Shown here piece after piece: positions 384-41,838 of a stretch of 41,838 nucleotides of DNA. Below the pieces are notes generated by a model, which made no database searches, was not told the DNA's origin, and was given only the letters and a program-made list of their open reading frames with translations. The stretch is from positions 1 through 41,838 of IMG/VR virus record IMGVR_UViG_3300048901_000018; one strand, written 5' to 3'. Both the position numbers and the translations under genes were made by a program. The stretch is from a virus. Taxonomy: Duplodnaviria; Caudoviricetes. Numbering within the stretch: position 1 is the first letter of the stretch; the number at the start of each line of letters is the position of its first letter.

Positions 384-425
384 ACACTTGCCGTGTGAGT
401 CGCACGAAAACAGGAGTCACAAGTG

Positions 426-773
426 ATGACAGAGAACCTGCATAAAGCAGAGCCGCATATCATTGCGGCTATTCGGCGTTTGGAAATGATGCTTTGGTTT
501 GTGAGGAATAAAAAGCTCGCTCCTCACGTTCATATTCCAAAGTATTACGATCTGGTTATGAATGACATGGTGGCGCTACAGAGTGCCCTGTGTTCCGACG
601 ATGAGTACACCGAAGCTGTGGCTCAAAGTTTGGCCCGTGTGAATCACACGAGGGAATACAACTACAACGTGACCGCCAACGATAAAGGCGAAATCCATTA
701 CATGATTGACGCTGCGTTGCCTCTCAAAGAGATGAAAGAGAATGTCATCTTTGTGCGGAGAGAAGAGCCATGA
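426..773 (+). CDS. Hypothetical early protein
   Basis: ATG at 426 after CAGGAG. A one-mismatch palindrome lies upstream (393) and a perfect copy inside (637, VNHT). Confidence 0.7.
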   Translation: MTENLHKAEPHIIAAIRRLEMMLWFVRNKKLAPHVHIPKYYDLVMNDMVALQSALCSDDEYTEAVAQSLARVNHTREYNYNVTANDKGEIHYMIDAALPLKEMKENVIFVRREEP

Positions 774-1138
774 CTGGAACAAGGTCGAGGTTCGAGCAAG
801 CCAAGCCGCTTACGTTAGAGCGGCTGCAAGATTTCGTTGCGATCGACTGTTTGACTGCCCAAGTGCCACTGATCGAGGTATCGCGTAAAGGTGGAATGCG
901 TATCTGGGTCGCTTACGATCCGTCTCGTACTTATGGCACTTATATGGAGGTAGGTCCAAATGGACTCGTGCGCACTATCACAGTATATCTTTCGGGGAGG
1001 AAGAATGAGGTCATCAACAGACCATCGTATAAAATTACTAGAGTTCCTAAGGGAAAGAGACTATATTCTGCGGTACCAAAATCCCGACGCTTTAAGGGAG
1101 TTTCTAAAGAAGCGAAACCTACCAGTGCCGAGGAGTAA
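770..1138 (+). CDS. Hypothetical protein
   Basis: ATGA overlap with the previous stop; basic C-terminal tail overlaps the next gene. Confidence 0.6.
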   Translation: MTGTRSRFEQAKPLTLERLQDFVAIDCLTAQVPLIEVSRKGGMRIWVAYDPSRTYGTYMEVGPNGLVRTITVYLSGRKNEVINRPSYKITRVPKGKRLYSAVPKSRRFKGVSKEAKPTSAEE

Positions 1139-1271
1139 AGCTGTGATGGAAATCACTTGGCACAAAAGCATCACGGCGGCCAAGAACTTACCAAAGGAAT
1201 ATAGGTTAAAGAGTAAGAAGTGGTTAGAAGTTCGGGGTTATCATGCGCTTGATGATGGGGATTTAGAATGA
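1005..1271 (+). CDS. Conserved-looking phage hypothetical protein
   Basis: GGGGAGG RBS before ATG 1005. The ERD..L...HK..T....LP...R..S..WL..RG pattern is familiar from small phage proteins. Confidence 0.7.
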   Translation: MRSSTDHRIKLLEFLRERDYILRYQNPDALREFLKKRNLPVPRSKAVMEITWHKSITAAKNLPKEYRLKSKKWLEVRGYHALDDGDLE

Positions 1272-1678
1272 GAGGAGGTTGGGTATGCACAATTAAAAAA
1301 TGTAAGGATAAGAACATGGGCTATCCAGTCTCATCACTGGTTCGGTCTAACTTTAAATTTACGTCTAAGGGTGAACCTATATGTCTTGATTGTTGGTCTA
1401 GATGGGGATTTAGAATGAAAACGCGAGCCAAGATGATTGATGTTGAGGGAGAGTCGCTGTGTATTGTTGAGATTGATGGTGGTACATTGCGTAGTGCTGT
1501 CCAAGCTGCGGTCGGTCGTTTGATTCACACGGCGGATGCAAACGCAGATTTGAACTGGACACACATTGAGATATACGTGAACAGATGGATGGTGGATGAT
1601 GACGGTAACACTCGCCCTGCGGAACTTGAAGGAAGCAATAGAGATACTAAAGAGGGAGCCTCGAACAAAGGAACGTGA
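1268..1678 (+). CDS. Hypothetical protein with N-terminal Cys pairs (alternative start at 1415)
   Basis: ATGA overlap with the previous stop; CTIKKC and CLDC motifs. Confidence 0.55.
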   Translation: MRGGWVCTIKKCKDKNMGYPVSSLVRSNFKFTSKGEPICLDCWSRWGFRMKTRAKMIDVEGESLCIVEIDGGTLRSAVQAAVGRLIHTADANADLNWTHIEIYVNRWMVDDDGNTRPAELEGSNRDTKEGASNKGT

Positions 1679-1742
1679 CGAAGTTCTCAAGCAACTGGAA
1701 GATGCTCTGCAAGAGTTGCAGGATATCTGGAGGAGGGTTTGA
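1596..1742 (+). CDS. 48-aa helical protein not in the ORF track
   Basis: Manual translation MMTVTLALRNLKEAIEILKREPRTKERDEVLKQLEDALQELQDIWRRV. It fills the gap, and its stop overlaps the next start. Confidence 0.55.
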   Translation: MMTVTLALRNLKEAIEILKREPRTKERDEVLKQLEDALQELQDIWRRV

Positions 1743-2023
1743 TGACTGATAGGTTGTTGGGTGGACAGGCGGCCGATAGGTTACCGAACGACATACCTGT
1801 GCAGGAATGTCTCAAGATAGCTGATAAGTTGATCCGTGAGGGTCATCAGGTGTATCAGAAGTTCACTTGTAGTAAGTGTCAGTCACGTCAGACGATTGAT
1901 ATGCCTGATACGTTCTACGCGAAGGGTCGATGTGAGGAGTGCAGTCACATTACCGATATTGAGAAGAAGGGCTGTGGGTTCTTGGTGATAATGAGGATGA
2001 AACATGGGAGTGATACAGTTTAG
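1739..2023 (+). CDS. Zinc-ribbon protein
   Basis: CSKC...CEEC motifs; GGAGGAGG RBS. Confidence 0.7.
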   Translation: MMTDRLLGGQAADRLPNDIPVQECLKIADKLIREGHQVYQKFTCSKCQSRQTIDMPDTFYAKGRCEECSHITDIEKKGCGFLVIMRMKHGSDTV

Positions 2024-2210
2024 AATTGGTCGGAGGCATGGCAAAGCAGGATTGCCATATCTGATCCACCGAAATCAGCGGCGCTATGATGGTGCCTCTG
2101 ATAACGACTCGTACTTACACGGTTACAAGTACGGGGAGAAAGAGCGTAGGATGAGTTTTTCAGAGCGTGTGACTCACACGAAAACAGGAGAAGAGAATGT
2201 CGGAAGTTAA
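2004..2210 (+). CDS. Hypothetical protein
   Basis: Fills the gap between coupled genes; contains the palindrome at 2167 (VTHT). Confidence 0.5.
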   Translation: MGVIQFRIGRRHGKAGLPYLIHRNQRRYDGASDNDSYLHGYKYGEKERRMSFSERVTHTKTGEENVGS

Positions 2211-2637
2211 GACGAACTTAGGTTTACAGGCTCAGGTGTGGATGGATTTGGATCGTCTACAGGATCGGTTGTCTTTCCCATCACGTTCGAATGCAGGCAA
2301 AGATTTTGCAATGCTGTTTGTGTGGAAGCTCATTGAGCAAGTCTCGGGGAAGAAATACAAAGAGCTTATGGACAAGCTGATTTCTGATGGTAGGCTTGTC
2401 GATCCACAAACCCTCTCGTTTGCAGGCAACCACGTTCTTGGCGAAGCCGGTAGGTACATTGTGCAAGTCAATGTGTCCGTGCCGCGCAGGGAGTTCAACG
2501 CTGATTGGCTCGCGAACAGGTTGCTAAAGGACTATAAGGTTCCCCATGCAATCACTCGACAGTTGATTGAGGAAGCCAAACGTCCGGGCAATACGCAGGT
2601 GCGGCGTGTCACCGTTGCGGAAAAGGGAGAGGCGTGA
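2197..2637 (+). CDS. Hypothetical protein
   Basis: Preceded by palindrome plus GAAAACAGGAG, the same context as upstream of 426. Confidence 0.75.
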   Translation: MSEVKTNLGLQAQVWMDLDRLQDRLSFPSRSNAGKDFAMLFVWKLIEQVSGKKYKELMDKLISDGRLVDPQTLSFAGNHVLGEAGRYIVQVNVSVPRREFNADWLANRLLKDYKVPHAITRQLIEEAKRPGNTQVRRVTVAEKGEA

Positions 2638-2846
2638 TGGCTACAGTGTCGAAAGAGATAGCTGATAAGATCATGGCTAACGGTGGTTATTATTCCGACG
2701 ATCCTCGCGTGATGCAAGTGGTCAAGTATGACAACTTCGAGGGCCAGCCAGCATATGCGATCTTGTACGCTCAAGATATAGCGGCTGATCGATATCGTCC
2801 CACCCAATACGTCAACAATCCAAAAGTCATTTGGAGGGCGACGTAA
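2634..2846 (+). CDS. Hypothetical protein
   Basis: GGGAGAGG RBS and overlapping start/stop. Confidence 0.7.
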   Translation: MMATVSKEIADKIMANGGYYSDDPRVMQVVKYDNFEGQPAYAILYAQDIAADRYRPTQYVNNPKVIWRAT

Positions 2847-3154
2847 TGCCTTTGGTACTCGCACCATCATTTGATGATCACACTCGCGAGCAAGTCGAAG
2901 CTCACTTAGAGCAAGTTCGTATTCGGCGTCTCGCCGGGGCCTTGGAATACCAACAGTCTAAGCTTCTCAGACTAGAGAAGGATAACAACTCGGTTACGAA
3001 TAAACTCATTCGTAATTACGAACAGATGGGTAAGGCGTTAGCTCGTCTGGATAAAGACCTAGAGAAGATCGAAGGGTATCTGGCTACGTGTCAAATGCTA
3101 AAGACCGAAGCCGACTTGAACATGGATCGCATCACACTGGCGAAAAGGAAATAG
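2846..3154 (+). CDS. Coiled-coil hypothetical protein
   Basis: TAATG overlap, GGAGG RBS, heptad-like sequence. Confidence 0.7.
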   Translation: MPLVLAPSFDDHTREQVEAHLEQVRIRRLAGALEYQQSKLLRLEKDNNSVTNKLIRNYEQMGKALARLDKDLEKIEGYLATCQMLKTEADLNMDRITLAKRK

Positions 3155-3155
3155 A

Positions 3156-3509: not shown

Positions 3510-3787
3510 TGGACTGGAACACTTTCAACAAAGAACTACAAAACAGAGTGAGTGATCCGGGCATAAGGTATATGCTTGGAATTGTGTATGAGCGCCAACT
3601 CCATATGGCGAAGCAAGTGGATGCGTGTTCGAGTATCGTGAATGAGTTAGCTAACGTTATGGGAAACTTTGTGACTCTGCATGAGGTACTCGATGGAAGG
3701 CTTAAAGACCTTAATAAGCATGTTAGAGGCGACGTTGATGGTGTCGAGCTTGACTCTGTGCCTATCACTAACGACGATCCCAACTAG
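3509..3787 (+). CDS. Hypothetical protein
   Basis: GGGAGG RBS and TGATG overlap. Confidence 0.7.
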   Translation: MDWNTFNKELQNRVSDPGIRYMLGIVYERQLHMAKQVDACSSIVNELANVMGNFVTLHEVLDGRLKDLNKHVRGDVDGVELDSVPITNDDPN

Positions 3788-3959
3788 AGCAGATGATTTC
3801 GTTGATCGATGGCCGCACCCAACAAGCGTTGAGCCTGCTCCAGTTGAACAGGTTCGTGTTAAGGTCAAGAAACACCGTGTGACTCACACGAAGCGGTTTG
3901 TGTGTCACAAGCGATACTACTACAAACGCGGCTATCGATATTGGAGATGTAAGCGATGA
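3720..3959 (+). CDS. Small basic protein with signal-peptide-like N-terminus
   Basis: Hydrophobic MLEATLMVSSLTLCLSL...TRA/DD followed by a K/R/H/Y-rich tail; stop overlaps the next ATG. Confidence 0.55.
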   Translation: MLEATLMVSSLTLCLSLTTIPTRADDFVDRWPHPTSVEPAPVEQVRVKVKKHRVTHTKRFVCHKRYYYKRGYRYWRCKR

Positions 3960-4204: not shown

Positions 4205-4536
4205 GTTACCGTTACGTCACAATCAAGCCTGATGGCGAACTGATATCAACCGTAGAGAAGAAACCACCGGATTGGAAGGTAATCCAAAAATATGTGGAGG
4301 GATCGTTTCAGGTTATTCCATATTTCTCTTCGTTGGAGTTTGATGGCAGGAAGCTTAATCGTGGAACTGCGTATGCCAACGAGGAAGGGTACATCAAGGG
4401 TATGGCATTTAATCCTCTCGCCTCGGCGTGTTGGATGAAAGCGTGTCCTAAGGGGGAACCGCGTCGCATGCAATTGTGCGGCCCGGTATTGTTTGTGGCG
4501 AAGGAGAAGGAGCCACAGAATGTCCAAGCAAGTTAA
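4201..4536 (+). CDS. DUF3846-like phage protein
   Basis: IQKYVEG...YANEEG...FNPLA...LCGPVLFV matches the Q..V.G / NEEG / N..A / G.V pattern of DUF3846. Confidence 0.65.
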   Translation: MSYRYVTIKPDGELISTVEKKPPDWKVIQKYVEGSFQVIPYFSSLEFDGRKLNRGTAYANEEGYIKGMAFNPLASACWMKACPKGEPRRMQLCGPVLFVAKEKEPQNVQAS

Positions 4537-4909
4537 GGGCTTCCTCGCTCCTGATGGTACGTTCTTCGATCATGAGCCAGAGTGCAGGCGTTACGAATCG
4601 ATGAAGAACTTAGAGCGTGTGTGTGATTCACACGGAACCAACTTCGAAAACTTCATGATCTGTCTGAATGCGTGGCACAAGACAATAAAGGAATACTACA
4701 ATGCGGACTCAAAGTGTAAAGCCCCCGAAGTCGGAAAGAAAGATACCGTCGAGTTCAGAAACGAAGGAACTGACGAAGTTATTGAGAGAAACGACGGAGA
4801 TGAATACGACTACTCACTTCCACGAACTGAGGGAGATACTCCCGACCCTACCGGCGGAGACAAAGACGCTCCGGGCTTTCTCGAACAGTCGTTTAGAAAG
4901 TATAAGTGA
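4520..4909 (+). CDS. Hypothetical protein with acidic C-terminus
   Basis: AAGGAG RBS before ATG 4520 (MSKQVKGFLAPDGTFF); contains the palindrome at 4621 (CDSH). Confidence 0.65.
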   Translation: MSKQVKGFLAPDGTFFDHEPECRRYESMKNLERVCDSHGTNFENFMICLNAWHKTIKEYYNADSKCKAPEVGKKDTVEFRNEGTDEVIERNDGDEYDYSLPRTEGDTPDPTGGDKDAPGFLEQSFRKYK

Positions 4910-5870
4910 ATGCCCTACATTCGGTGTTATCCACATGCAACGTCAGTATCCCCAACACGGGCGTGCTTTGGCTTTAGAGGCTGGGGAGGCTATGCATCAG
5001 TTTTTCGCTGCGATGAGGTGCTGGCAACTGTGGAAGTTTCAGGGTTTGCCGGAACACGCGCAGCTTACTGGGGAGAGGATATTCGGCGTCGAAAGATGGA
5101 TCGAGATTTGGAAAGCTTGTGTGAAACACACGAGCGACATGGATCAGATCGCCCAACTCGCGTTTGACGTTCTCAATACGTCAGGGTATTACGACGATCC
5201 AAAGGATAAGAATCGTACCCTTGCCAACATGCAAACCGCTGCGGTAGTATATGCGAGGGAAACATATCCGTATCTTTATGCTTGGCCCATATGGGTTGAT
5301 AATCCGAAAGACCCATTGAAACCCACTGGTGTCGAACAAGTGTTCGATGTAGTTCTAGAGTATATGGATGGCAAGCGCATTCGTTACATCGGAACTCTAG
5401 ACGGGATTCTGTGTAATGCTTCAAAGAACAATCGAGTTACTATGGCAGAAAACAAGACAGCCGCTCGAATGGACAAGGCGTGGATTGAGTCCTTTAAAAT
5501 GCGTCACCAGATCACAGGGTATATGGCGTGTGGAATGGCACTGTTTCAGTTTAGCATGTATCACGCGAGAGTGTATGGATGCAGACTTAAGCCAATGTAC
5601 CGTGGCGAGGATGTTCATGTGGAGCCTGTTTCTCGAACCAAAGATGATATTTTACATTGGGCCAATTGGGTACGTAGGCAAGTTGAGATATTTGAAGAGT
5701 ATCAAGTCGATTGGGAACATTCAGAGCGCCGCACTCATTCGTGTAATCGCTATTTCCGTCCGTGTGCGCTCATTCCATTCTGTGGTGACACTCCAGAAGG
5801 TCGCCGTGAACAGTGGGATCAAATGATTGATGCTGTTCCGTCCCCGAGCGAAAGGGCGTTGCAGGAATGA
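4701..5870 (+). CDS. Cas4-like / RecB-family PD-(D/E)xK exonuclease (start may be 4800)
   Basis: ECP, GEAMH, GVEQ, GTLDG, AENKT, QITGY and C-terminal C..(PC)...C, consistent with a 4-Cys Fe-S clamp. Confidence 0.8.
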   Translation: MRTQSVKPPKSERKIPSSSETKELTKLLRETTEMNTTTHFHELREILPTLPAETKTLRAFSNSRLESISECPTFGVIHMQRQYPQHGRALALEAGEAMHQFFAAMRCWQLWKFQGLPEHAQLTGERIFGVERWIEIWKACVKHTSDMDQIAQLAFDVLNTSGYYDDPKDKNRTLANMQTAAVVYARETYPYLYAWPIWVDNPKDPLKPTGVEQVFDVVLEYMDGKRIRYIGTLDGILCNASKNNRVTMAENKTAARMDKAWIESFKMRHQITGYMACGMALFQFSMYHARVYGCRLKPMYRGEDVHVEPVSRTKDDILHWANWVRRQVEIFEEYQVDWEHSERRTHSCNRYFRPCALIPFCGDTPEGRREQWDQMIDAVPSPSERALQE

Positions 5871-6775
5871 ACGACGTAGTAAAATTCCCCATTAAGAGGG
5901 GCGTCGATGCCAGCGTCAGGCTGTCCATGCTGATATGGGGACAGGCTGGCGCAGGTAAAACGACATATGCAGCGACGGCACCGGGGGACAAGCTTTGGTT
6001 GTCCTTTGGGGAAGGCGAGCATGTTAGTGTTAGTGCTAGAAGTGACGTGTTCGTGATGGATTTGTCTAGCGTCCCTGCGGATGAAGTATTCAAGCACGGT
6101 ATCGGTAGGAATGCCTTCGGGTTGGATCAGCAATTGTATGAACGCAGGAATATCAAAACCGTGGTTGTGGATAACCTCACGGCTATTCAGTATTTGGGCT
6201 TAGAAAAAGCTGTGGCAGATGGTATAGGCAAGAGTACCATGTTCACTCCGACCATGCAGTCTCCCGGTCGATCAGCCTATGGCGGGAGGAATGCCAATCT
6301 TATCGCATTGATGAAATCGTTATTGTTCATCACTGGTAAGCACCGGGTTAACATCATCTTCATTGCCCATGAGAATGATCCAGTAACCAAGATCGACAAT
6401 AAAGGTGTGGAGACAATTGAGCACATAGGCATGTCATTGGGTGGTCAACTAGTGAACAACGTATCTGCCCAGTTGTCAGAGATATGGAACTTTCGCCAAG
6501 AGCCTATGGGCAAGCGGAATCGCATCATTACCGTTCGAGTTTCAGGCTCGCGTAAACCGATGAAAACTAGGATGTTCGATCAGCGTGGTGAGTCGTCATT
6601 CGTGGTGAACTATGACCCCACTAAGCCAAATAACACATTGGGTCAAACCACAATTGCCGGGTTTTGGGAACAGTGGCACAAGTCAGGTATGCAGCGTATT
6701 CAAGTTCCTTCTACTCGCACAGGTGGCGACAAGGAAGATAACAACGTTATAAAGATTGGTCCGCACTCTGGTTAG
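5867..6775 (+). CDS. Sak4-like AAA ATPase (single-strand annealing protein)
   Basis: Walker A GQAGAGKT, Walker B TVVVDN, IIFIAHE; lies between a nuclease and an SSB. Confidence 0.8.
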   Translation: MNDVVKFPIKRGVDASVRLSMLIWGQAGAGKTTYAATAPGDKLWLSFGEGEHVSVSARSDVFVMDLSSVPADEVFKHGIGRNAFGLDQQLYERRNIKTVVVDNLTAIQYLGLEKAVADGIGKSTMFTPTMQSPGRSAYGGRNANLIALMKSLLFITGKHRVNIIFIAHENDPVTKIDNKGVETIEHIGMSLGGQLVNNVSAQLSEIWNFRQEPMGKRNRIITVRVSGSRKPMKTRMFDQRGESSFVVNYDPTKPNNTLGQTTIAGFWEQWHKSGMQRIQVPSTRTGGDKEDNNVIKIGPHSG

Positions 6776-6857
6776 TGTGAATCACACGAACTTCCGACCG
6801 GGGAAGTTCATCATTAACAAGGTGGGCCGGTCACCACCTAACTGAGAGTCCATTAAC

Positions 6858-7394: not shown

Positions 7395-7404
7395 GTAAGT
7401 CAAC

Positions 7405-7439: not shown

Positions 7440-7449
7440 GGAGAATACA

Positions 7450-7726: not shown

Positions 7727-8005
7727 ATGTCTCAGGTTGATATGATCACAATATCGTTGAGTCCTCCCTATCCTGACGTGGGTATGTGCACCGCTGTCGT
7801 CAGGTTGAGAGGACAAGACAAATATCTCTTTGACACAGCAGCAAAGCACATGGGTATGCCGAATAGCGTTCTCATGAGGGTGCTGTTGGTCAAAGGTGCG
7901 GAGCGAATACTAAGAGAGTTAGGGATTGAGATTACTTACGAACAAAATGATAACATCGACCTAACTAAAGGTGAGGTACTAATCGATGAAAAGGCAGGAG
8001 ATTGA
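7727..8005 (+). CDS. Ribbon-helix-helix (CopG/Arc-like) DNA-binding protein
   Basis: TAVVRL strand, QDKYLFDTAAKHMG helix and MPNSVLMRVLL helix give the typical RHH signature; GGAG RBS. Confidence 0.65.
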   Translation: MSQVDMITISLSPPYPDVGMCTAVVRLRGQDKYLFDTAAKHMGMPNSVLMRVLLVKGAERILRELGIEITYEQNDNIDLTKGEVLIDEKAGD

Positions 8006-9218: not shown

Positions 9219-9492
9219 CTTACCAGAATATGACGAGTTCGTAGAATGCACAAACCCCGACTGTGTGTATCGTAAGGCCAAGCCTGTAACCGGCTTACAC
9301 GGTATGGCTGGAGGTGGCATGGGTCCGTATACTTGTTGTGAGATATGCGGAACCGTTCTCACTAAGAGCCAAGACGCAGAAATCCTGTGTGATTCACACG
9401 AAGATATTGGGAGCAAGACCGATGCACAAGTTGCCAGTGATAAAGCTGAACACGCCGCTGAGTCAGATTCAAGACCTGACCTCGACGAATGA
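9211..9492 (+). CDS. Small Zn-ribbon-like protein
   Basis: CTNPDC...CEIC motifs; start overlaps the helicase stop. Confidence 0.55.
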   Translation: MPDLPEYDEFVECTNPDCVYRKAKPVTGLHGMAGGGMGPYTCCEICGTVLTKSQDAEILCDSHEDIGSKTDAQVASDKAEHAAESDSRPDLDE

Positions 9493-11992
9493 TATCGAGC
9501 AACACTTTCGTGCACATGCCTCCGACTTGGGTCTAGTGACCCAAGTCTTTTCAGAGGGTCCAATCAATGCCTCCATTGCAATTGTTGGTGAAGGTCCGGG
9601 CGAAAGCGAAGTCACCAAAGGGCGACCGTTCATCGGAGGATCGGGTCGCCTTCTGTTCGACACTCTCAAGACTATTGGTCTCAATCGAACAGATGTATAT
9701 GTTACAAATGTCGTTAAACGCCAAATATCGCTATCACGCACTGGTAATGAACGAAATGAGGTTAGACGTGAAGAGTTCGACAAGTGGGCTGATCTACTCC
9801 ACTGGGAATTGGCCCGACTCCCTAACCTCAAGACTATCCTTATTATGGGCAACTTTGCGTTACACGCATTACTTGGAGAGGACAAGGTTACAAACTGGCG
9901 TGGTAGTGTCCTCCAGCCCGCCAAGTTCCCCGGAAACAGACTAGGCACATATGTCATAACGATCAATCCAGCTTACGCTATGCGTGAGTTGAAGCTCGAA
10001 CCTGTGTTCACTCTAGATATAAGGAACCGATTAGGTGCGGTGGTCAAAGGAACATACAAGTCGTATGAAATCGAGACACTTATCAACCCGACTTACCAAC
10101 AAGCTCTCAAAGCAATCAGAGATATCAAAGGCGCTAAGAAGCCTACAACCCTTGACATCGAGGGCATCGGTAAAGAAACAGCATGTATCGGGCTTGCTAA
10201 CGATCCGCATAGGTCCGTGTGTATCAACTGGCGAGACGATAGAGATAATCGCTATAGTGTCCAAGAAGAAGCCGACATCTTATATGCCGTCCAAGATTTG
10301 TGTGATTCACACAGGTCTAATGGAACCCCGCTTATTGGTCAAAATGCTCAATTCGATACTTACCATCTACGGCTTAAGGACTGGCTCAGCGTCACTTTCT
10401 CAGACGACACCCTCCTACAACATCACACCCTCTACCCCCAACTTCCCCACAGTCTCGGCTTCCTCACTTCCCAGTATACTACACATCCTTTCTACAAGGA
10501 TGAGTACGATGCTTGGCGCGAGGGAGGTAACATTGACGATTTCTGGCGCTACAACGGAAAAGATACTTGTATTACTCTCAGGTGTTGGGAGAGAATGTGT
10601 GTAGAGCTAAAGGAACAAGGTCTGTGGGAGTTCTATCGCAACCATGTCATGCGAGCGCATCCACACCTTGTGAGTGCAACGGTTCACGGCGTAGCAGTTG
10701 ATGAGAAGCGAAAGCAGGAGATTGTGAAACTCGTCGCGGAGGATGTGCAGAATATCCTCGACCACTTTCACCATTGCGTGCATTTGCTAACTGGTGATCC
10801 GTTCTACTCGCCTAACCCCGGCTCTTGGCAGCAGATGAAGGATTTGTATTTCAATCGTTTGCAGTTAAAGGGTCGGGGTACTTCCACAGACGAGAGTAAT
10901 AGAGCGCATATGCTCAAGAATCCTGAAACGCCGGTAATGGCAAAGGAGATGATTGCCCTTGTCAACAGATACGCAGAAGAGTCGAAGTTTCTCGGTACAT
11001 ATGCCGAATCGAAGGTCGGGGAAGATGGTCGCTTTAGGTGCGAGTATAAGCAAAACGGAGTCCAAAAGGCTCCCGGTCGATTGTCCTCCGCCGGTCTACT
11101 TGATGGTCAGGGTGGGAACATGCAGAACCAGCCAGTCCGGGCTAGAGAAATGTATGTGTGCGACCCCGGCATGGTGTTTGGGTACTTCGACTTGTCGCAA
11201 GCGGAAGCTCGTGTTGTAGGGTGGAGGGCAGGTATCCCTAAGTGGCAGCACCAATTCGAGAAAGCCCGACTCGATGGAGTCTATGATTGTCACCGAGCCC
11301 TAGCTTCGGATATGTTCAAAGTGCCATACGAGAAAGTTCCCAAGGAGGACTTCGATGACAACGGAAAGCCAACCATCCGATACGTCGCCAAGCGATGTCG
11401 TCATGGTCTTAACTATCGTATGGAGAGATTCAAGCTCTCAGAAGTTACAGGGCTATCGTATAACGAAGCGTCTCGCAACTTCATCATATATCATACAACG
11501 ACCCCTGAACTCGAAAAATGGTGGGATGCAGAAGAGAGAAACTTTCGAAAGAATAAGGAAGTCTACAACGCACTTGGTCGAAGGTTCAAAGTTATTCAGC
11601 GTATCGATGATGAGGTTCTTAAGTCGATTGTGGCATTTTACCCGCAATCTACCATTGGGGATAAGATTACTCGCGTGTGGTATCAGAGCGAGTCGGATGA
11701 TGATTGGCCCGACGATGCTCGCGTTGCTATTGACGTCCACGATAACCTTGTATGCATTGCTAGTCCTAAGACTATCAAGACTGCTCTTCGAATAATGGTG
11801 AAGTACGCCGAGGAGCCGATCAGCATCAGGAACGTGCATACCAATCGAGCAGAGGAATTAATCATTCCAGCCGAAGCGAAGATCAGTTATCCAGTGTCGT
11901 ATGTGTTAAACGACAAGGGTAAATGGGAATACGTGCGAGATGACAAGAACGGAGTGCATAGATGGAGTCACTTGGAGAAGGTAAAGCTCTAA
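9422..11992 (+). CDS. polA: Family A DNA polymerase with N-terminal family-4 UDG-like domain and 3'-5' exonuclease (ORF open from 9314)
   Basis: UDG: IVGEGPGESE..GRPFIG.SG, YVTNVVK. Exo: LDIEG, QNAQFD, YNGKD. Pol: GRLSS, DLSQAEAR, RYVAKRCRHGLNY, VHDNL. GGGAG RBS before ATG 9422. Confidence 0.93.
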   Translation: MHKLPVIKLNTPLSQIQDLTSTNDIEQHFRAHASDLGLVTQVFSEGPINASIAIVGEGPGESEVTKGRPFIGGSGRLLFDTLKTIGLNRTDVYVTNVVKRQISLSRTGNERNEVRREEFDKWADLLHWELARLPNLKTILIMGNFALHALLGEDKVTNWRGSVLQPAKFPGNRLGTYVITINPAYAMRELKLEPVFTLDIRNRLGAVVKGTYKSYEIETLINPTYQQALKAIRDIKGAKKPTTLDIEGIGKETACIGLANDPHRSVCINWRDDRDNRYSVQEEADILYAVQDLCDSHRSNGTPLIGQNAQFDTYHLRLKDWLSVTFSDDTLLQHHTLYPQLPHSLGFLTSQYTTHPFYKDEYDAWREGGNIDDFWRYNGKDTCITLRCWERMCVELKEQGLWEFYRNHVMRAHPHLVSATVHGVAVDEKRKQEIVKLVAEDVQNILDHFHHCVHLLTGDPFYSPNPGSWQQMKDLYFNRLQLKGRGTSTDESNRAHMLKNPETPVMAKEMIALVNRYAEESKFLGTYAESKVGEDGRFRCEYKQNGVQKAPGRLSSAGLLDGQGGNMQNQPVRAREMYVCDPGMVFGYFDLSQAEARVVGWRAGIPKWQHQFEKARLDGVYDCHRALASDMFKVPYEKVPKEDFDDNGKPTIRYVAKRCRHGLNYRMERFKLSEVTGLSYNEASRNFIIYHTTTPELEKWWDAEERNFRKNKEVYNALGRRFKVIQRIDDEVLKSIVAFYPQSTIGDKITRVWYQSESDDDWPDDARVAIDVHDNLVCIASPKTIKTALRIMVKYAEEPISIRNVHTNRAEELIIPAEAKISYPVSYVLNDKGKWEYVRDDKNGVHRWSHLEKVKL

Positions 11993-12649: not shown

Positions 12650-12686
12650 GAAAGAGCCCCGTGTGAGTCACACGGGGTTTTTCTTT
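12648..12686. terminator. Bidirectional intrinsic terminator whose stem-loop is the 13-bp palindrome
   Basis: AAGAAAGAGCCCC-GTGTGAGTCACAC-GGGGTTTTTCTTT between convergent stops at 12649 and 12685. Confidence 0.85.
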
Positions 12687-17862: not shown

Positions 17863-17890
17863 TTCACTCTCCCGTGTGAATCACACGAAC

Positions 17891-19082: not shown

Positions 19083-19098
19083 TTGTGTGACTCACACG

Positions 19099-20104: not shown

Positions 20105-20128
20105 TTTACTCTCCGTGTGAATCACACA

Positions 20129-21169: not shown

Positions 21170-21205
21170 GATAGCCTCCTATTCTCTGTGTGATTCACAC
21201 GATCA

Positions 21206-22120: not shown

Positions 22121-22620
22121 CAGTTTTCTCCATATCCTGACCAGTGAAAGATTGCACCAACTTCCTTGAATCCTTGTCTCTCTAGAATAGCATTAAACAG
22201 TTCGGCTTCTTTCGAACCTTTGGGAAAGCTACCACCCGTATGCGAGGCTCGGATAAGTTTTGCTCCCTTTCCCTTGGCCCATTCGACATAGGCGTGAAAG
22301 AGTTTTGATGTGTTCTTATAAGTTCTGTACTCAGGCTCAACCCATAAGAATATGTCGTCAGCCACAAAATCATAGGACATGAGACTGCAAACGCACCAAG
22401 CTCCGCCAAATCCGTAAACAACGTCGTGTGAGTCACACAACACCCATCCTGCGAAGGCTGCGGCATTATCGATATTATGTTCGAGGACATACCGTATTCT
22501 CCCTTCGTCCGGTGTGATCCACCGATAATTTGGCAATTGAGGAATAGCGTTCATGAGTAAGTGAACACAACGCGGAATATCGTGCGGCTTATACATTCTG
22601 AGTTCCAAATCTTTGCTCAT
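22120..22620 (-). CDS. GNAT-fold acetyltransferase-like protein
   Basis: FLWVEPEYR....SKL...YVEWAKGKGAK...ERQGFKEVG; usual podovirus position before the ejection genes. Confidence 0.75.
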   Translation of the reverse strand: MSKDLELRMYKPHDIPRCVHLLMNAIPQLPNYRWITPDEGRIRYVLEHNIDNAAAFAGWVLCDSHDVVYGFGGAWCVCSLMSYDFVADDIFLWVEPEYRTYKNTSKLFHAYVEWAKGKGAKLIRASHTGGSFPKGSKEAELFNAILERQGFKEVGAIFHWSGYGEN

Positions 22621-24159: not shown

Positions 24160-24176
24160 GATCTACTCCGTGTGAC

Positions 24177-27888: not shown

Positions 27889-27902
27889 TTGTGTGACTCA
27901 CA

Positions 27903-29804: not shown

Positions 29805-29831
29805 AGGCTTACTCCGTGTGAGTCACACGAA

Positions 29832-30536: not shown

Positions 30537-30550
30537 CTGTGTGACTCACA

Positions 30551-31225
30551 CTAAGCGTTGAAAGCCCTGATCCCGTGTAGACCGCCGTTATTGTTGGCGT
30601 TCACGCCGGTATCCGGTCGCATGCACACGATGTACTCCTTGATACCATCAGGCGCAGCCGTGGGGATATACTGTCCACGAGGATCGCCGGTGCTTGCCGT
30701 TGCAGGATCGGTCAAGTCCGCTGCGACGATCTTGGCGAACGCCAGATCGATAAAAGCGCCCGCCTCTTTCACCCACTCAAGCGAGCCCTTCCACGGGAGA
30801 GGCAAGTTCGCCCCACGGGCAACAGTGACCTGCGCCACTGCTGTCGTATGTCCGGGCATGCCTCTTGCACCGAACACACGATAGAACGGCTTCTTCATCG
30901 CGCCACCAGCGACGACGATATCCTCGACCATCGGCTGGCCGAGATAATCTTCGCCGAAGATACGCACACTGGTTGAACCCGTCAGGGCCGTGGTCACGGC
31001 AAGAACAAGGTTCCGTCCATACGGCGAGTCGGTGAACACGATCGGAGAAGCCAGATACCCCGACGCATTGGCCGGAATATCAATCGCCTGCGCACCACCG
31101 GCGGCAAGAGGCCGTCCGAGAGATACGATATTCCCTTCATTCGCACTGAGCGAGCTTGCCCACTGCATACCGGGGACATACATATTGATCCCCTGCATGA
31201 AGCCTGATCGATCACGAAAACCCAT
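30551..31225 (-). CDS. Virion structural protein, possible capsid decoration
   Basis: Gly/Ala-rich, AGGAG RBS, two genes after the capsid gene. Confidence 0.55.
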   Translation of the reverse strand: MGFRDRSGFMQGINMYVPGMQWASSLSANEGNIVSLGRPLAAGGAQAIDIPANASGYLASPIVFTDSPYGRNLVLAVTTALTGSTSVRIFGEDYLGQPMVEDIVVAGGAMKKPFYRVFGARGMPGHTTAVAQVTVARGANLPLPWKGSLEWVKEAGAFIDLAFAKIVAADLTDPATASTGDPRGQYIPTAAPDGIKEYIVCMRPDTGVNANNNGGLHGIRAFNA

Positions 31226-31656: not shown

Positions 31657-31680
31657 TTTCGATCTCCGTGTGAGTCACAC

Positions 31681-32667: not shown

Positions 32668-32695
32668 GACTTCACCCTTGTGTGACTCACACGAA

Positions 32696-33871
32696 CTATC
32701 TACGGGCTCCGCCCAAGACTTCTCGTATGATTGCGTCGTATGACATACTGGGGTGAGCAGGTCCAGCGTTAGACCCTCTTCCCCTGTCACCACCGGATGG
32801 GGCCATACCCTGCCCATTCGGTAGACTCCGCGAAGGTTGCCCTCCGGGGTTGCCACTTAGTCGCTGTCTCTGACTGCGGCTTGGCGGTTGTCGTGGATCA
32901 ACGCCATTCCGAATCAGGTGAAGTTGCACCTTGTCCCAAATTTCTCCCAGTGACATATGCTGAAACCGGGGTTGTTGTAAAACGGCATGGAATACGTGAG
33001 TGTATGGAACTGCCTCGGGCGTATTTCCAAAGAACGTCTGTACTTGTCTCTCCGCTTGTTGGAGGTATTGGGAATCTACTTCTTGCCTTTGCTGAGCCTC
33101 ACGCTGCTGTTGCGTGTACTGCTGAACAGGAGCAATACCAGCTTGGATTTCTCTCCGAATTTGCTCCACGAGAGTTTTCGGATCGATCGACTTGTTATCC
33201 ATTCCTAACTGTGATATATCTATACCAGATAATGCCGCCCTTGTCAAGAGGTTTTTTAGCACGCCCACCGGATCGGTTTGCGCTTGTTTGTAGTACCCCG
33301 CAGCCTCAATAAGACCCTCTTTTGGCAGATCGTAAGCATTGATCTGTTTCATTGTACTCTTCAAATCAGAGAGTTCTTTCTCAAAGGCGAGCCCTATCTC
33401 CACGGCTCGGTTGAGCTTTCCACGCTCTTGTTGCATCTGGTTCTGTATATTACCAGTTGCAGCACGAATATAGTCTGTTGCCTGTTTATGAACTCGCTGA
33501 TAAATACGGGCTTCCGACCCTGCCCGTGCAATGAGTTCTCCAGTTCGAGAATCGACAAGATTACCTTTCTTATCTTGCCTGAATGTCGCTCTAGGATCGA
33601 ACTTAAGCGCATTTTGGCGCAACGGATCAGGTGCCTGTTGACGTGGTTCACCGCGGAACTGCTGATCTTCAAATCTCTGTTGGGGTTCACGTTGTTGTTC
33701 GTGTGATTCAAACGAAGGATCGTCAGGTTCGTTCGGTTGGCCTTGATCCGGTTCTTCACTTTCATCACCCCAATCGAGTTGCGTAGTCGGAGCCAAATCC
33801 TCATCGGTCAAACCCAAGGAGTCCTTAATAACGTCCATACCAACCTTGTCGTCACCATCTAGATCGGGCAT
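32696..33871 (-). CDS. Capsid scaffolding protein
   Basis: Acidic disordered N-terminus and Gln-rich coiled coil, between portal and capsid. Confidence 0.7.
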   Translation of the reverse strand: MPDLDGDDKVGMDVIKDSLGLTDEDLAPTTQLDWGDESEEPDQGQPNEPDDPSFESHEQQREPQQRFEDQQFRGEPRQQAPDPLRQNALKFDPRATFRQDKKGNLVDSRTGELIARAGSEARIYQRVHKQATDYIRAATGNIQNQMQQERGKLNRAVEIGLAFEKELSDLKSTMKQINAYDLPKEGLIEAAGYYKQAQTDPVGVLKNLLTRAALSGIDISQLGMDNKSIDPKTLVEQIRREIQAGIAPVQQYTQQQREAQQRQEVDSQYLQQAERQVQTFFGNTPEAVPYTHVFHAVLQQPRFQHMSLGEIWDKVQLHLIRNGVDPRQPPSRSQRQRLSGNPGGQPSRSLPNGQGMAPSGGDRGRGSNAGPAHPSMSYDAIIREVLGGARR

Positions 33872-36148: not shown

Positions 36149-36181
36149 AACTTTTCCCCGCCGTGTGAGTCACACGAAAAC

Positions 36182-37098: not shown

Positions 37099-37110
37099 GT
37101 GTGAATCACA

Positions 37111-38649
37111 CTAAAACCGGGCGCGACGTGAATTTCTTCCATCATCGTCCATTTCGTACCAGAACATATACTTGGGAACTTGTTTGCTTCGCGGAATCTC
37201 TATTTCTGCGGGCTCAGGCTGGTGGGAGAGCATATACTTAACAGCATCCATCGCATGATCATCGCGGTCGATGGGTCGATCAATGTGTTCGCCCGTCGAA
37301 GTACGGTCCCAGTAATAGTTTGTAATCTCGTCGGTGATAAAGTCCAGATCATCGACAAAATACAGAAGCGGTGCCGGAGACTTTCCAGTGACGATGTGCT
37401 CATGGGTTGGTTGTTCTGCGAGGTAAGCTGCAACCTTCGCAACTCCTGTGATGATATCATTCGTAGCCGGTCTGCATTCCATTCCCGCAGTCGCCAGAAG
37501 TTGTGCAATAGGAGTGCCGGTATCGACGTGCTTTTCAATAACCTTTTGCTTAAAGATTGACGGATCGGCTCTGATCGACTCCTCCACGTTGATAAGATGA
37601 GCGTATTTTGCCCTAATCTTTCGAACGAGATCGGGCTGTTTGGTGTAATGAAGGTTTCTCTCATAGAAGCCATCCAATACAATAACTCTTCCCCAGTCAT
37701 CCACGAATCCAAAAAGATAACACGAAGGAGAGGATATTCCGAAGTCGTATCCCTCAATTGCTTGGACACGGTAATGCTCCCTCTGCAATCTCCACAAATG
37801 ATCCATCGCTTGCTGGCGAGTAAGAAGATTCTTCTCCTCCTCATAATCTTGGTAAACCAAACCTTCATACGCTGCCCACTTGCCTTCAAGGAATCGAGCG
37901 CGCATCTGGCCTCGATACGAAGCCTCCAGAGTACGAATAAAATCGTCTGTGAGATTTTCTTTGTTCGTGTAAGTCGAACCTTCGATCAAATCAATGATCG
38001 GAACGCCGGTCATCGGATTGCAAAGCAGTTGATCCATCTTGCGACCGGATCGCTTGTAAACCTGTAACGGCTTGATCATCTCACGATACACCCAATTACT
38101 TGTTGGGTTGCTCGACAGCATCAGCCATCGTGGTCCCGAATCCGGCATGGATTCGTCCTCGCGTCCTTCTGGGCGGTAAGGTGTTTGTCCACGGAGACGT
38201 CCCATAAGATCGAGAAGGTCTTTATGTACGATTTCAGGATCTTCAATTTGATCGATGCCGATCCAATCATACGTCGCTGAGAGCAAATTCGATGTGGTTG
38301 AGCCATCAACATTTTGCTTACCCCTCTGTGAGATGTAGCGAAAATTGATGATCGTCCCATTCTTGAGGTAACAAGTATTGTCATCCTGTGTTGGCATCTT
38401 CTTGATCCAATCAGGAGGACACCACAGAAAGAAAACCTTCCTCAATGTGTCATTCAGCTTCGGGTAAGTTGAACGGCCAAGGAGCCCGTTTGAACCCGGA
38501 TATTCGACACACAGCTTGAGAGCTTTGATAACCAAAGCGGTGGTCTTGCCGTTCGCAAAACCACCACCAAAGAATTGAATCTTGTTGCGAGACTGATCGA
38601 AGTCCCACTGTATTGTGCCTTTTCTTAATTTGTAATTGTTCTGTGACAT
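37111..38649 (-). CDS. terL: Terminase large subunit
   Basis: Walker A GGFANGKT, Walker B variant WIGIDQIED, LSSNP, RFLEGKW, nuclease GYDFG and DDHAMDAVKY. Confidence 0.92.
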   Translation of the reverse strand: MSQNNYKLRKGTIQWDFDQSRNKIQFFGGGFANGKTTALVIKALKLCVEYPGSNGLLGRSTYPKLNDTLRKVFFLWCPPDWIKKMPTQDDNTCYLKNGTIINFRYISQRGKQNVDGSTTSNLLSATYDWIGIDQIEDPEIVHKDLLDLMGRLRGQTPYRPEGREDESMPDSGPRWLMLSSNPTSNWVYREMIKPLQVYKRSGRKMDQLLCNPMTGVPIIDLIEGSTYTNKENLTDDFIRTLEASYRGQMRARFLEGKWAAYEGLVYQDYEEEKNLLTRQQAMDHLWRLQREHYRVQAIEGYDFGISSPSCYLFGFVDDWGRVIVLDGFYERNLHYTKQPDLVRKIRAKYAHLINVEESIRADPSIFKQKVIEKHVDTGTPIAQLLATAGMECRPATNDIITGVAKVAAYLAEQPTHEHIVTGKSPAPLLYFVDDLDFITDEITNYYWDRTSTGEHIDRPIDRDDHAMDAVKYMLSHQPEPAEIEIPRSKQVPKYMFWYEMDDDGRNSRRARF

Positions 38650-39995: not shown

Positions 39996-40058
39996 TTTCA
40001 ACTCCTTGTGTGACTCACACGACGGGAAAAGAATCAACTCAATAGGAATCACTTCCTA

Positions 40059-40456: not shown

Positions 40457-40548
40457 AAATGCCGTTGGGCCGAGCGTCTGACAGGAAACAGACACCCGGC
40501 CCGAGCAAAATGTGACCCTGAACGGCACATTTCACGTGTGAATCACAC
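40457..40548 (-). promoter_or_regulatory. Structured 5' leader of the late transcript
   Basis: 14-bp stem 40467-40480 / 40489-40502 with two G-U pairs that form only on the minus strand, flanked by alternative pairings. Confidence 0.55.
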
Positions 40549-40613: not shown

Positions 40614-40649
40614 GAACTATTTCGTGTGATTCACACGAAGTGATTCACC

Positions 40650-40666
40650 TGCGACATATCGTCGCA
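40650..40666. promoter_or_regulatory. RegR/PrrA-like inverted repeat TGCGAC-N5-GTCGCA
   Basis: Perfect 6-bp arms with a 5-nt spacer, between divergent promoters. Confidence 0.55.
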
Positions 40667-40711: not shown

Positions 40712-40829
40712 AATGGTATTCTGTGACGCGATGCGGAAGTATTGCGACCCCCTCTGACCAGTAAGACGCGCATCATTTGCGATCGTTCCGACACCCTTTT
40801 CCGTGTGAATCACACTTCAGGAGACCAAA

Positions 40830-41209: not shown

Positions 41210-41415
41210 GTGTGAATCACACAGACAACAAACTCTACGCGGTTATGGCTAATCACTTCTACGCTGGTATAATCGTGAATCGTGGAGTCATCATTCAAGC
41301 CGCGCCTATTCTTAAATGGTCTATCGGCCAAGACTTCGACAACTTTAGGTTGTATTGTCGTAAGAAATTCTGGGCGATAGGCCCTGAAATCAAACCATTG
41401 GATCATCAGCTATGA
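41206..41415 (+). CDS. Hypothetical protein (69 aa)
   Basis: GGAG RBS, ATG 41206; HFYAGII..GVIIQAAPILKWSIG pattern; palindrome at codons 2-6. Confidence 0.7.
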   Translation: MSVNHTDNKLYAVMANHFYAGIIVNRGVIIQAAPILKWSIGQDFDNFRLYCRKKFWAIGPEIKPLDHQL

Positions 41416-41519
41416 GCATGGCACCCCCTCCTAGTCCCACCACACTCATACTCGCATTTGTGATTATGTTTATACTTCTGGTATACGAGTATTTGCATCA
41501 TTCGCTGCGATTATTATAA
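41412..41519 (+). CDS. 35-aa single-TM peptide not in the ORF track
   Basis: MSMAPPPSPTTLILAFVIMFILLVYEYLHHSLRLL; ATGA overlap with the previous stop. Confidence 0.55.
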   Translation: MSMAPPPSPTTLILAFVIMFILLVYEYLHHSLRLL

Positions 41520-41563
41520 ACCACGCGAGGATAATCCTTCCCTCTTTCTTTCCTCTATGCCCC

Positions 41564-41603
41564 AAAGAAAAAGCCCCCTCAGATATCTCTAAGGGGGCTT
41601 TTC
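41564..41603. terminator. Bidirectional intrinsic terminator
   Basis: AAAGAAAAAGCCCCCT-CAGATATCTCTA-AGGGGGCTTTTC. Confidence 0.8.
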
Positions 41604-41646
41604 CATGTTCAGGACTAGGCCCAGAGCCTAATAATGTCCTATCATT
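41564..41646 (-). ncRNA. Candidate ~80-nt small RNA
   Basis: Bounded by a consensus promoter and a terminator. 5' hairpin AGGAC..TAGGC-TCTGG-GCCTA-GTCCT; no ORF longer than 9 codons. Confidence 0.5.
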
Positions 41647-41652
41647 ACCCCC

Positions 41653-41681
41653 ATTATATCGCCGTTAGGCGCGGTTGTCAA
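41653..41681 (-). promoter_or_regulatory. Perfect-consensus sigma70 promoter
   Basis: TTGACA (41681-41676), 17 nt, TATAAT (41658-41653). Confidence 0.85.
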
Positions 41682-41705
41682 GCCATATTCATCAACAATG
41701 CACCC

Positions 41706-41722
41706 TGCGACAATATGCCGCA
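41706..41722. promoter_or_regulatory. Second RegR/PrrA-like inverted repeat TGCGAC-N5-GCCGCA
   Basis: Reads TGCGGC-N5-GTCGCA on the minus strand, upstream of the 41681 promoter. Confidence 0.55.
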
Positions 41723-41838
41723 CCTAAGGGATTTCGTGTGAATCACACACCCCCCTTTTATTGGGAATTGGGCCCCCTTTGCGTAGGTTTGTGTGATTTT
41801 CACTCATGCGTAGGCGCCCGCGCTGCGCGGTGCGCGCC

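What the first reader, a model, noticed from the sequence alone, without database searches (positions are those of the whole stretch)
393..41748. Genome-wide 13-bp palindrome system GTGTGA-N-TCACAC (30 perfect copies)
Seen: 30 exact and about 6 one-mismatch copies in 41.8 kb, against about 41838/4^12 = 0.0025 expected. They occur in both arms, at gene junctions, inside genes, in a terminator and around promoters, with a free centre base. Known analogues: mycobacteriophage L5 stoperators (13 bp, about 30 copies at gene boundaries, but asymmetric and oriented) and chromosome-organising sites such as E. coli matS (a 13-bp palindrome of different sequence). Inference: a dimeric protein coats the whole phage genome, to silence it, organise or segregate it, shield it from host defence, or pace transcription or ejection. 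I do not recognise this motif from any described phage.
Basis: partly seen in the sequence, partly recalled or inferred. Interest (0 to 1): 0.95.

Follow-up and report, generated by a model that had tools for sequence, protein, structure and literature searches.

The report
Phage palindrome lattice with new reader
An uncultured soil phage repeats one 13-letter DNA palindrome about every 1.2 kb along its whole genome, and its relatives point to a phage protein of no known family as the likely reader, which would coat and mark the viral DNA as its own rather than switch single genes.

Summary
Confirmed: 30 exact and 6 one-mismatch copies of GTGTGA-N-TCACAC (chance 0.01) in a lytic-looking soil podovirus. 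All 31 related records first examined carry such a lattice in their own spelling. Spacing is more even than random in 27 of 28 genomes, sites persist inside genes, and half-sites vary independently, so this is a double-stranded DNA site, not a hairpin or artefact. The best candidate is a basic ~310-aa early protein of no known fold ('fam26'), predicted dimeric and abundant. Its gene lies in the gap just left of the window. Among nine further near-complete relatives, six have fam26 and a lattice but no RHH; three (one clade) have an RHH but neither fam26 nor lattice. One basic helix is conserved within a motif class and switches between classes. Binding and purpose are untested; genome coating or self-marking is my best reading. 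The kind is known (Cluster O mycobacteriophage repeats, function unknown), and this scan found such lattices before on other DNA.

The parts
393..405 (.). lattice site, 1 mismatch, upstream of ORF 426
637..649 (.). lattice site in ORF 426-773
   Evidence: kept in 2 of 2 alignable relatives
1518..1530 (.). lattice site, 1 mismatch, in ORF 1268-1678
2167..2179 (.). lattice site 18 bp before ORF 2197
3877..3889 (.). lattice site in doubtful ORF 3681-3959
4529..4909 (+). acidic early protein 'p4493' (median pI 4.6); absent with fam26 from the three lattice-free genomes; possible partner, untested
4621..4633 (.). lattice site in p4493
   Evidence: kept in 4 of 4 alignable relatives
5119..5131 (.). 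lattice site, 1 mismatch, in the exonuclease gene
   Evidence: kept in 0 of 4 alignable relatives
6775..6787 (.). lattice site at the Sak4 stop codon
7685..7697 (.). lattice site 30 bp before the RHH gene
7727..8005 (+). ribbon-helix-helix protein (TacA/DUF1778-like); tested as reader and rejected
   Evidence: fold; rejection
9387..9399 (.). lattice site before the DNA polymerase gene
10300..10312 (.). lattice site inside the DNA polymerase gene
   Evidence: kept in 5 of 5 close relatives; 24 of 24 genomes have a site at codons 210-340 of PolA
12661..12673 (.). lattice site inside the hairpin where the two arms converge
14537..14549 (.). lattice site, 1 mismatch, in the 1725-aa gene
16784..16796 (.). 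lattice site, 1 mismatch, in the 1725-aa gene
17874..17886 (.). lattice site, gene junction
19085..19097 (.). lattice site, gene junction
20115..20127 (.). lattice site, gene junction
21188..21200 (.). lattice site, gene junction
22426..22438 (.). lattice site in the GNAT gene
   Evidence: kept in 4 of 4 alignable relatives
24170..24182 (.). lattice site overlapping a stop codon
26194..26206 (.). lattice site in the 747-aa tail gene
   Evidence: kept in 4 of 5 relatives
27891..27903 (.). lattice site, gene junction
29816..29828 (.). lattice site, gene junction
30539..30551 (.). lattice site, gene junction
31668..31680 (.). lattice site after the major capsid gene
32680..32692 (.). lattice site before the major capsid gene
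33701..33713 (.). lattice site, 1 mismatch, in the scaffold-position gene
36163..36175 (.). lattice site before the portal gene
37099..37111 (.). lattice site at the TerL stop codon
38652..38664 (.). lattice site 3 bp before TerL
40008..40020 (.). lattice site, gene junction
40536..40548 (.). lattice site in the late-operon leader
40624..40636 (.). lattice site 11 bp upstream of the -35 of a leftward promoter-like site (40613-40585)
40803..40815 (.). lattice site before ORF 40830
41210..41222 (.). lattice site in the first codons of ORF 41206
41736..41748 (.). lattice site, control region
1..50 (+). left end of the record; the candidate reader gene fam26 is not in the window but ends about 0.4-0.7 kb to the left of it
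   Evidence: synteny in G001; contigs of runs that hold this phage

Best explanation
The 13-mer is a selected, evenly spaced lattice of double-stranded DNA palindromes, likely bound by a phage-encoded early protein of no known fold ('fam26', about 310 aa, predicted to be an abundant dimer) that would coat and organise the infecting genome and mark it as self. Shown: the lattice, its even spacing, its persistence inside genes, the independence of its half-sites, its rarity in bacterial chromosomes, and its co-occurrence with fam26 and not with the RHH protein. Inferred: each subunit reads one half-site with the basic helix K-x-T-x-R-S/T-N-x-x-H/T-x-x-K-K (residues 128-143 of the modelled G001 protein); fam26 is made first and in bulk; bound dimers every ~1.2 kb, helped by Lys/Ala-rich tails, compact or loop the DNA and shield it from host DNA-acting factors during lytic growth. 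The sites sit at gene junctions because 13 bp cost least there, and inside long genes where no junction is available. My odds: reader is fam26 about 0.7; purpose is coating or self-marking about 0.6 given that.
For: Lattice: 32 of 32 records carry a dyad at 0.74-1.89 per kb, reversed-sequence control 0. Spacing CV 0.53 against 0.96 in the window; P<0.05 in 27 of 28 genomes against both a uniform null and a gene-junction null (four near-duplicate pairs included). 23 of 28 alignable in-gene positions keep a site at 65-81% DNA identity, in each genome's own spelling. Mixed half-sites: 174 seen against 146 expected if independent, 350 sites of 8 genomes, so pairing is not selected. Bacterial chromosomes: about 200 stretches in all of GTDB hold the 15-mer tested; five genomes checked have 1-2 copies of the 13-mer each. 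Reader: fam26 found in 28 of 32 records, the four misses being partial records. Of nine further genomes at least 90% complete, six have fam26, a lattice and no RHH; three complete ones have an RHH, TerS and the winged helix but no fam26 and at most 3-7 copies of any dyad. Residues 128-138 are the best-conserved stretch among four TACA-motif proteins (73-100% against 41-52% overall) and 9-18% identical to the GT-motif class. Across 131 homologues K130 89% K/R, R134 86%, N136 95%, median pI 9.5. His139 goes with G at position 4 in 9 of 9 genomes and switches with the motif in the sister pairs G041/G042 and L308/L295; rank 9 of 10,796 column-states, and fam26 columns rank first for two other motif traits. 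Homodimer model: score 0.71, best control 0.00; the mark was reached by 20 of 30 solved homodimers and 1 of 23 monomers; runs agree in at least 75% of contacts, pLDDT at least 74. Capsid-like codon bias, third of 24 families; RHH 23rd. The same fam26 allele is in 4 of 4 runs that hold this phage, at matching depth where compared (11.2 against 11.6; 5.0 against 5.3), and one contig joins its 3' end to window 2166-2219.
Against: No binding was measured and no protein-DNA model could be run. The three genomes without fam26 form one clade, so presence/absence is a single contrast, and p4493 is lost with fam26. Whole-protein distance did not single out fam26 (partial r 0.06-0.08; TerS highest at 0.26-0.33), nor did sliding windows (best fam26 rank 14-51 of about 2,880). 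The R134/N136 pair ranked 32 of 3,003 and 171 of 2,926, behind structural proteins. Thr139 also occurs with G at position 4 in G001, G020 and G039. In the dimer model residues 133, 136, 137 and 140 touch the partner chain, so the helix may be conserved for structure, and the antiparallel coiled coil was not shown to bring two helices onto half-sites 7 bp apart. All modelling used a relative's protein (G001). Relatives show a mild orientation bias (centre G 506 against C 375; mixed sites 60 against 39). The purpose is inferred from spacing and abundance only.
Confidence: 0.45

Rival explanations
1. Same reader, but it works as a symmetric stoperator: bound dimers slow or stop host RNA polymerase between genes, giving negative feedback on early genes, pacing of the late operon, or a dormant carrier state.
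For: 19 of 36 sites lie just before a start codon; one lies 11 bp upstream of a promoter-like -35; fam26 itself has a site upstream in 14 of 23 and downstream in 17 of 23 genomes. Precedent: Cluster A repressors (PMC9283540, passages).
Against: Sites are symmetric and unoriented in the window (centre A11, T10, G8, C7), whereas stoperators need orientation. No integrase, ParA/B or known repressor among 115 ORFs of two complete relatives; no prophage relative in GTDB. Both arms carry sites alike, and spacing is more even than gene junctions explain. Upstream sites are as common for capsid (19 of 22) and TerL (18 of 24) as for fam26.
Confidence: 0.2
2. The lattice is a set of loading points for DNA replication: the reader recruits the host helicase-primase or the phage Dda helicase about once per Okazaki-fragment length.
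For: No primase or ring helicase was detected in the window or in two complete relatives; spacing of about 1.2 kb is even and usable on both strands; 24 of 24 PolA genes keep an internal site.
Against: The three lattice-free genomes keep the same helicase, exonuclease, Sak4 and DUF669 genes (their primase content was not tested). Priming signals known to me are single-stranded and asymmetric (recalled).
Confidence: 0.1
3. A host factor reads the sites, for example through methylation of the central GANTC (the CcrM site of Alphaproteobacteria, recalled) or a host regulator with this core.
For: All 30 exact sites contain GANTC, while GANTC outside sites is among the 4 most depleted of 16 like palindromes in 28 of 28 family genomes. 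G015 and G032 avoid it outside (0.25, 0.29) yet keep it in 19 of 19 and 37 of 37 sites. A similar 15-mer is a single-copy site beside a MarR-like ORF in Actinomycetota.
Against: Several lineages have lattices almost free of GANTC (G002 1 of 51, G024 0 of 46, G029 0 of 41). Motifs differ between phages with 96% identical capsids. No bacterial genome with many copies was seen (38 of 64 parts scanned). Outside depletion does not predict GANTC in sites (rho 0.21, P 0.31, n 26).
Confidence: 0.09
4. The small terminase or another virion-assembly protein reads the lattice to pick phage DNA for packaging.
For: TerS has a helix-turn-helix-like stretch and the highest whole-protein partial correlation with motif distance (0.26-0.33); the sites separate phage DNA from host DNA about a thousandfold.
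Against: TerS is present in the three lattice-free genomes; packaging signals known to me are single loci (recalled).
Confidence: 0.05
5. The ribbon-helix-helix protein at 7727-8005 is the reader and the sites are its operators.
For: RHH fold supported (TacA1 Z 6.0, rmsd 2.2 over 50; PutA RHH Z 5.8, rmsd 1.1 over 44); present in 26 of 32 records; a site lies 30 bp before it.
Against: Absent from G026-G029 and from six more near-complete lattice genomes; an RHH is present in the three lattice-free ones. L299 and L308 have 92% identical RHH with the same strand but different motifs. The strand Arg is Glu in L249/L250, whose sites stay mostly GTGTGA. Low-expression codon use.
Confidence: 0.04
6. 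The sites are recombination linkers at gene borders, or RNA hairpins, with no DNA-binding reader.
For: Junction placement; a Sak4 recombinase is encoded; recombination between repeats was noted in Cluster O (PMC4351075 section 8); a 5-bp stem with a 3-base loop is possible.
Against: Mixed half-sites are in excess, not depleted (174 against 146); linkers need neither symmetry nor even spacing nor conserved in-gene copies.
Confidence: 0.05

Closest known systems
17-bp dyad repeats of Cluster O mycobacteriophages (Corndog and relatives; PMC4351075, passages and section 8 read)
   Same: More than 30 near-invariant dyad copies per genome, between and inside genes, not oriented, absent from host chromosomes, in phages that are not obviously temperate; predicted dimeric reader; function unknown.
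   Different: Other sequence and geometry (7-3-7 against 6-1-6), other phage group and host. There the motif is the same in five close genomes and denser at one end; here it is evenly spaced, drifts between relatives, and a specific candidate reader co-occurs with it.
Cluster A mycobacteriophage operators/stoperators (L5, TipsytheTRex; PMC9283540, passages read)
   Same: More than twenty 13-bp sites across the genome, many in short intergenic gaps, read by one phage protein.
   Different: Those are asymmetric, oriented with transcription, bound by a monomeric HTH repressor of temperate phages. Here they are symmetric and unoriented, and no HTH repressor or integrase was found.
MatP/matS of the E. 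coli Ter macrodomain (PMC3116907, passages read)
   Same: 13-bp palindrome with a free centre, 23 dispersed copies, a dimer proposed to bridge sites and compact DNA: the best 'works like' model.
   Different: Other sequence; host-encoded; one site per tens of kb in one chromosomal region; the fam26 model shows no match to MatP.
Lattices noted earlier by this scan in other phages (AI notes, unchecked: e1-10424577, e1-9761080, e1-6085818 and others)
   Same: Evenly spaced phage-private palindromes that differ between relatives; one note also proposes an abundant dimer of no known family.
   Different: No sequence look-alike to this family was returned; several of those have ParB/KorB-like readers, which were not found here.

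Membership tests
Cluster O-type genome-wide dyad repeats (a descriptive class) | More than 30 near-invariant dyad copies across the genome, inter- and intragenic | tested here: met
Cluster O-type genome-wide dyad repeats (a descriptive class) | No orientation with transcription; rare in bacterial chromosomes | tested here: met
   window centre bases A11, T10, G8, C7 (relatives show a mild bias); the true host is unknown
Cluster O-type genome-wide dyad repeats (a descriptive class) | The Cluster O 17-bp sequence itself (true homology) | tested here: not met
   other sequence and spacer
Cluster A stoperators | Asymmetric 13-mer oriented with transcription | tested here: not met
   perfect palindrome
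Cluster A stoperators | Temperate phage with integrase or parABS and an HTH immunity repressor | tested here: not met
   no such Pfam or PHROG hit in 55 window ORFs or 115 ORFs of G002 and G012; genes cut by my 20-kb stretches or missed by my caller were not scanned
Cluster A stoperators | Bound protein halts elongation | not testable with these tools
   needs in vitro transcription
MatP/matS | matS consensus, in the Ter region of a chromosome | tested here: not met
   sequence differs from the consensus quoted in PMC3116907; the sites are on a phage
   fam26 model: no Foldseek hit at E<=0.001, best VIA Z 4.7 on helical pieces; the central domain was barely tested
ParB/KorB-parS systems | ParB-family protein encoded | tested here: not met
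   no ParB hit
RHH regulator-operator systems | RHH fold in 7727-8005 | tested here: met
RHH regulator-operator systems | The RHH co-occurs and co-varies with the sites | tested here: not met

The most novel reading that the evidence does not exclude
fam26 founds a new class of sequence-specific DNA-binding proteins: a clamp-like dimer with no HTH, RHH or ParB domain that reads each half-site with one basic helix whose few residues set the base sequence. It builds a self-marked phage nucleoid every 1.2 kb that shields viral DNA from host silencing or GANTC-directed attack, and reader and some 35 sites are re-spelled together as lineages diverge.
Probability: 0.3. Interest if true: 0.87.

Novelty: new variant of a known kind. 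Interest (0 to 1): 0.68.

Why it matters
Genome-wide dyad repeats in lytic phages have been an open puzzle since Cluster O was described: neither reader nor function is known. This family supplies dozens of natural variants of site and protein, a named candidate reader with no known fold, a candidate specificity helix and natural lattice-free relatives. A binding assay with three or four synthetic genes would test it without a cultured phage. If it holds, it adds a new DNA-recognition fold with a simple code and a phage strategy of marking its whole genome.

Tried and rejected
No DNA-level relative among cultured phages (window 1-20,000 only); nearest capsids 22-25%; no fam26 match in 50,697 phage records; no prophage relative in GTDB by the capsid protein. 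RHH as reader: my first candidate, rejected. A simple code from the RHH strand looked good in 12 genomes and failed with more. The winged-helix ORF 11962-12213, the coiled-coil ORF 2846-3154, the 2197 ORF and TerS are all present in the lattice-free genomes. Whole-protein and sliding-window covariation did not pick any reader. fam26 has no significant Pfam, PHROG, PDB-sequence or fold match; BFVD gave only uncharacterised phage proteins, best E 1.6e-3; an ESM Atlas lead to the phiC31 repressor family scored 0.78, below the reliable range, and the paper search for it gave nothing relevant. The central domain of fam26 was not folded and searched alone. The bacterial scan gave single-copy hits, 59 of 120 from Actinomycetota, flanked by AT-rich arms and, in two loci read, beside a MarR-like ORF. 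No RNA holder listed. Literature: ten searches; the string TGTGANTCACA returned 0 papers; none described this family; subscription papers are not covered. The RegR/PrrA and CcrM readings are recalled: the RegR search returned 0 papers and the one CcrM review was seen only as a listing.

Full report
Observation. The window holds 30 exact copies of GTGTGA-N-TCACAC (shuffles: mean 0.01), six one-mismatch copies and one two-mismatch copy. The arms pair only across a one-base spacer. By my gene of the 36 sites lie between genes within 71 bp of a start, one in the convergent terminator, three in the control region and 13 inside ORFs. The record is a 93% complete viral contig of podovirus type: P22-like portal, terminase, capsid, transglycosylase-bearing 1725-aa protein, UDG-PolA fusion, Dda-like helicase, Sak4. 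Cultured phages are distant (capsid 22-25%). The family is common in soil and root metagenomes (209 capsid stretches). No prophage relative was found in GTDB, and 115 called ORFs of two complete relatives gave no integrase, ParA/B, primase or known repressor.

A selected DNA lattice. I fetched 31 related records, whole or in part. All 32 with the window carry a dyad at 0.74-1.89 per kb; the reversed-sequence control gave 0. Spellings differ: GTGTGA, GT[T/G]TGA, GT[A/G/T]TGA, GTGTG[T/A], GTTGTG, CTTTAA, GATTAA, YTACAG. Phages with 96% identical capsids can differ. Spacing is more even than random in 27 of 28 genomes of at least 30 kb, also against a null that puts sites at gene starts (four near-duplicate pairs are in the count). 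In-gene sites persist: 23 of 28 alignable positions in five relatives, each in the genome's own spelling, and 24 of 24 PolA genes have an internal site. Mixed half-sites are more common than independence predicts (174 against 146), so no hairpin is selected. In GTDB about 200 stretches hold the 15-mer tested, and five genomes checked have 1-2 copies of the 13-mer.

ORF 7727-8005 follows a site and models as a ribbon-helix-helix protein. It is missing from G026-G029, which have lattices. L299 and L308 share a 92% identical RHH but differ in motif. Its codon use looks like a scarce protein's.

The candidate reader. Clustering showed a core gene absent from the window, 'fam26', in 28 of 32 records, the misses being partial records. 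In G001 it directly precedes the homologue of window ORF 426 and has a site on each side. Four of four runs that hold this phage carry one identical fam26 allele, 82% like G001's; depth matches the window's left end in the two runs laid on both; and one contig links its 3' end to window 2166-2219 through a 24-base match and a 30-base loose end. The gene therefore ends about 0.4-0.7 kb left of position 1. The G001 protein models at pLDDT 87 with no significant family or fold match; 219 clusters match its profile. It is basic (median pI 9.5) with a conserved helix K130, R134, S/T135, N136, H/T139, K142, K143. A homodimer is supported: 0.71 against best control 0.00, a mark reached by 20 of 30 solved homodimers and 1 of 23 monomers, contacts agreeing at least 75%, pLDDT at least 74. 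Its codon bias ranks third of 24 families by likeness to the capsid gene.

The separating test. A terminase scan gave nine more genomes at least 90% complete. Six have fam26, a TACA-type lattice and no RHH; three complete ones have an RHH and no fam26. I read three of the six and all three of the latter whole: 38-55 dyad copies against at most 3-7, and a second-round profile still found no fam26. The lattice-free genomes keep TerS, the winged helix, the coiled-coil ORF and the replication genes tested; they lack fam26, p4493 and the GNAT. Two distant GenBank phages have neither gene nor lattice. The three form one clade, so this is one contrast. Residues 128-138 are the best-conserved stretch among four TACA-type proteins (73-100% against 41-52% overall) and only 9-18% like the GT-type helix. 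Within the GT class, His139 goes with G at position 4 and switches with it in two sister pairs. Against this: whole-protein and window tests did not single out fam26, structural-protein columns score as well by chance, Thr139 also occurs with G in three genomes, and part of the helix touches the partner chain in the model.

How it most likely works. Shown: an even, symmetric, self-specific lattice that travels with fam26. Inferred: fam26 is made first and in bulk, one dimer binds each site, and the coated DNA is compacted or looped and shielded. Even spacing across both arms, symmetry, predicted abundance and a lytic gene set fit architecture or self-marking (0.45) better than a stoperator-like roadblock (0.2), replication loading points (0.1), a host factor (0.09), packaging (0.05), the RHH (0.04) or linkers and hairpins (0.05).

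Host clue. GANTC is among the four most depleted of 16 like palindromes outside the sites in 28 of 28 genomes, though a codon-shuffle null gives a wide range, 0.0-1.1, 0.76 here. A second palindrome at 40650 and 41706 resembles the RegR/PrrA box (recalled). With capsid neighbours among Bradyrhizobium and Brucella phages this suggests an alphaproteobacterial host; it is not shown. Some lineages keep GANTC only inside sites, others have moved their motif off it.

Comparison and novelty. The kind is known: Cluster O mycobacteriophages carry 34 dyad repeats of unknown function (PMC4351075, passages and section 8). Stoperators are asymmetric and oriented (PMC9283540, passages). matS is the nearest functional model (PMC3116907, passages). 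This scan noted such lattices on other DNA (42 findings by words), none matching this family by sequence. Ten literature searches found neither this motif nor this family; supplements were not read. Verdict: a real, new variant of a known and unexplained kind, with a new and testable candidate reader. Interest 0.68.

Noticed in passing
window 40650-40666 and 41706-41722: A second palindrome, TGCGACA-N3-TG(T/C)CGCA-like, lies upstream of promoter-like sites and recurs in the control region of 11 relatives; it resembles the RegR/PrrA/ActR box (recalled), so host redox regulators may drive phage promoters.
   Followed up: partly
window, whole; G002 and G012: No primase or ring helicase detected; PolA carries an N-terminal uracil-DNA-glycosylase-like domain. 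How the lagging strand is primed is open.
   Followed up: partly
G024, G027, G028 against G015, G032: GANTC is almost absent from some genomes (0-0.11 of expected); others avoid it except inside lattice sites; GTGTG[T/A] lineages have fewer GANTC-containing sites than their half-site frequencies predict.
   Followed up: partly
window 51-383: HNH/endonuclease VII-like ORF is optional: a contig in run X2 skips 377 bases here, and another shows a perfect site before ORF 426.
   Followed up: partly
window 7450-7671: Acb2/Tad1 hairpin-domain protein (E 1.3e-5, below Pfam cut-off; above it in G002 and G012), a likely anti-defence sponge whose position varies between relatives.
   Followed up: no
   Followed up: partly
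L453-L567 (Actinomycetota): The same 15-base core with AT-rich arms is a conserved single-copy site in many soil Actinomycetota, beside a MarR-like ORF in the two loci read; probably a local operator.
   Followed up: partly
G081 (L660-L662): This lattice-free genome has seven copies of a 12-bp palindrome CAACA-N2-TGTTG, perhaps the operator of its RHH.
   Followed up: no
window, whole: At least 12 six-base palindromes are absent, a sign of restriction avoidance.
   Followed up: no
L110:16358-16525: A ribosome modulation factor (RMF) homologue in relative G012 (E 1.5e-7).
   Followed up: no
L031-L034: A further dyad, CAATT-N8-AATTG, five copies, in the 44% GC relatives.
   Followed up: no
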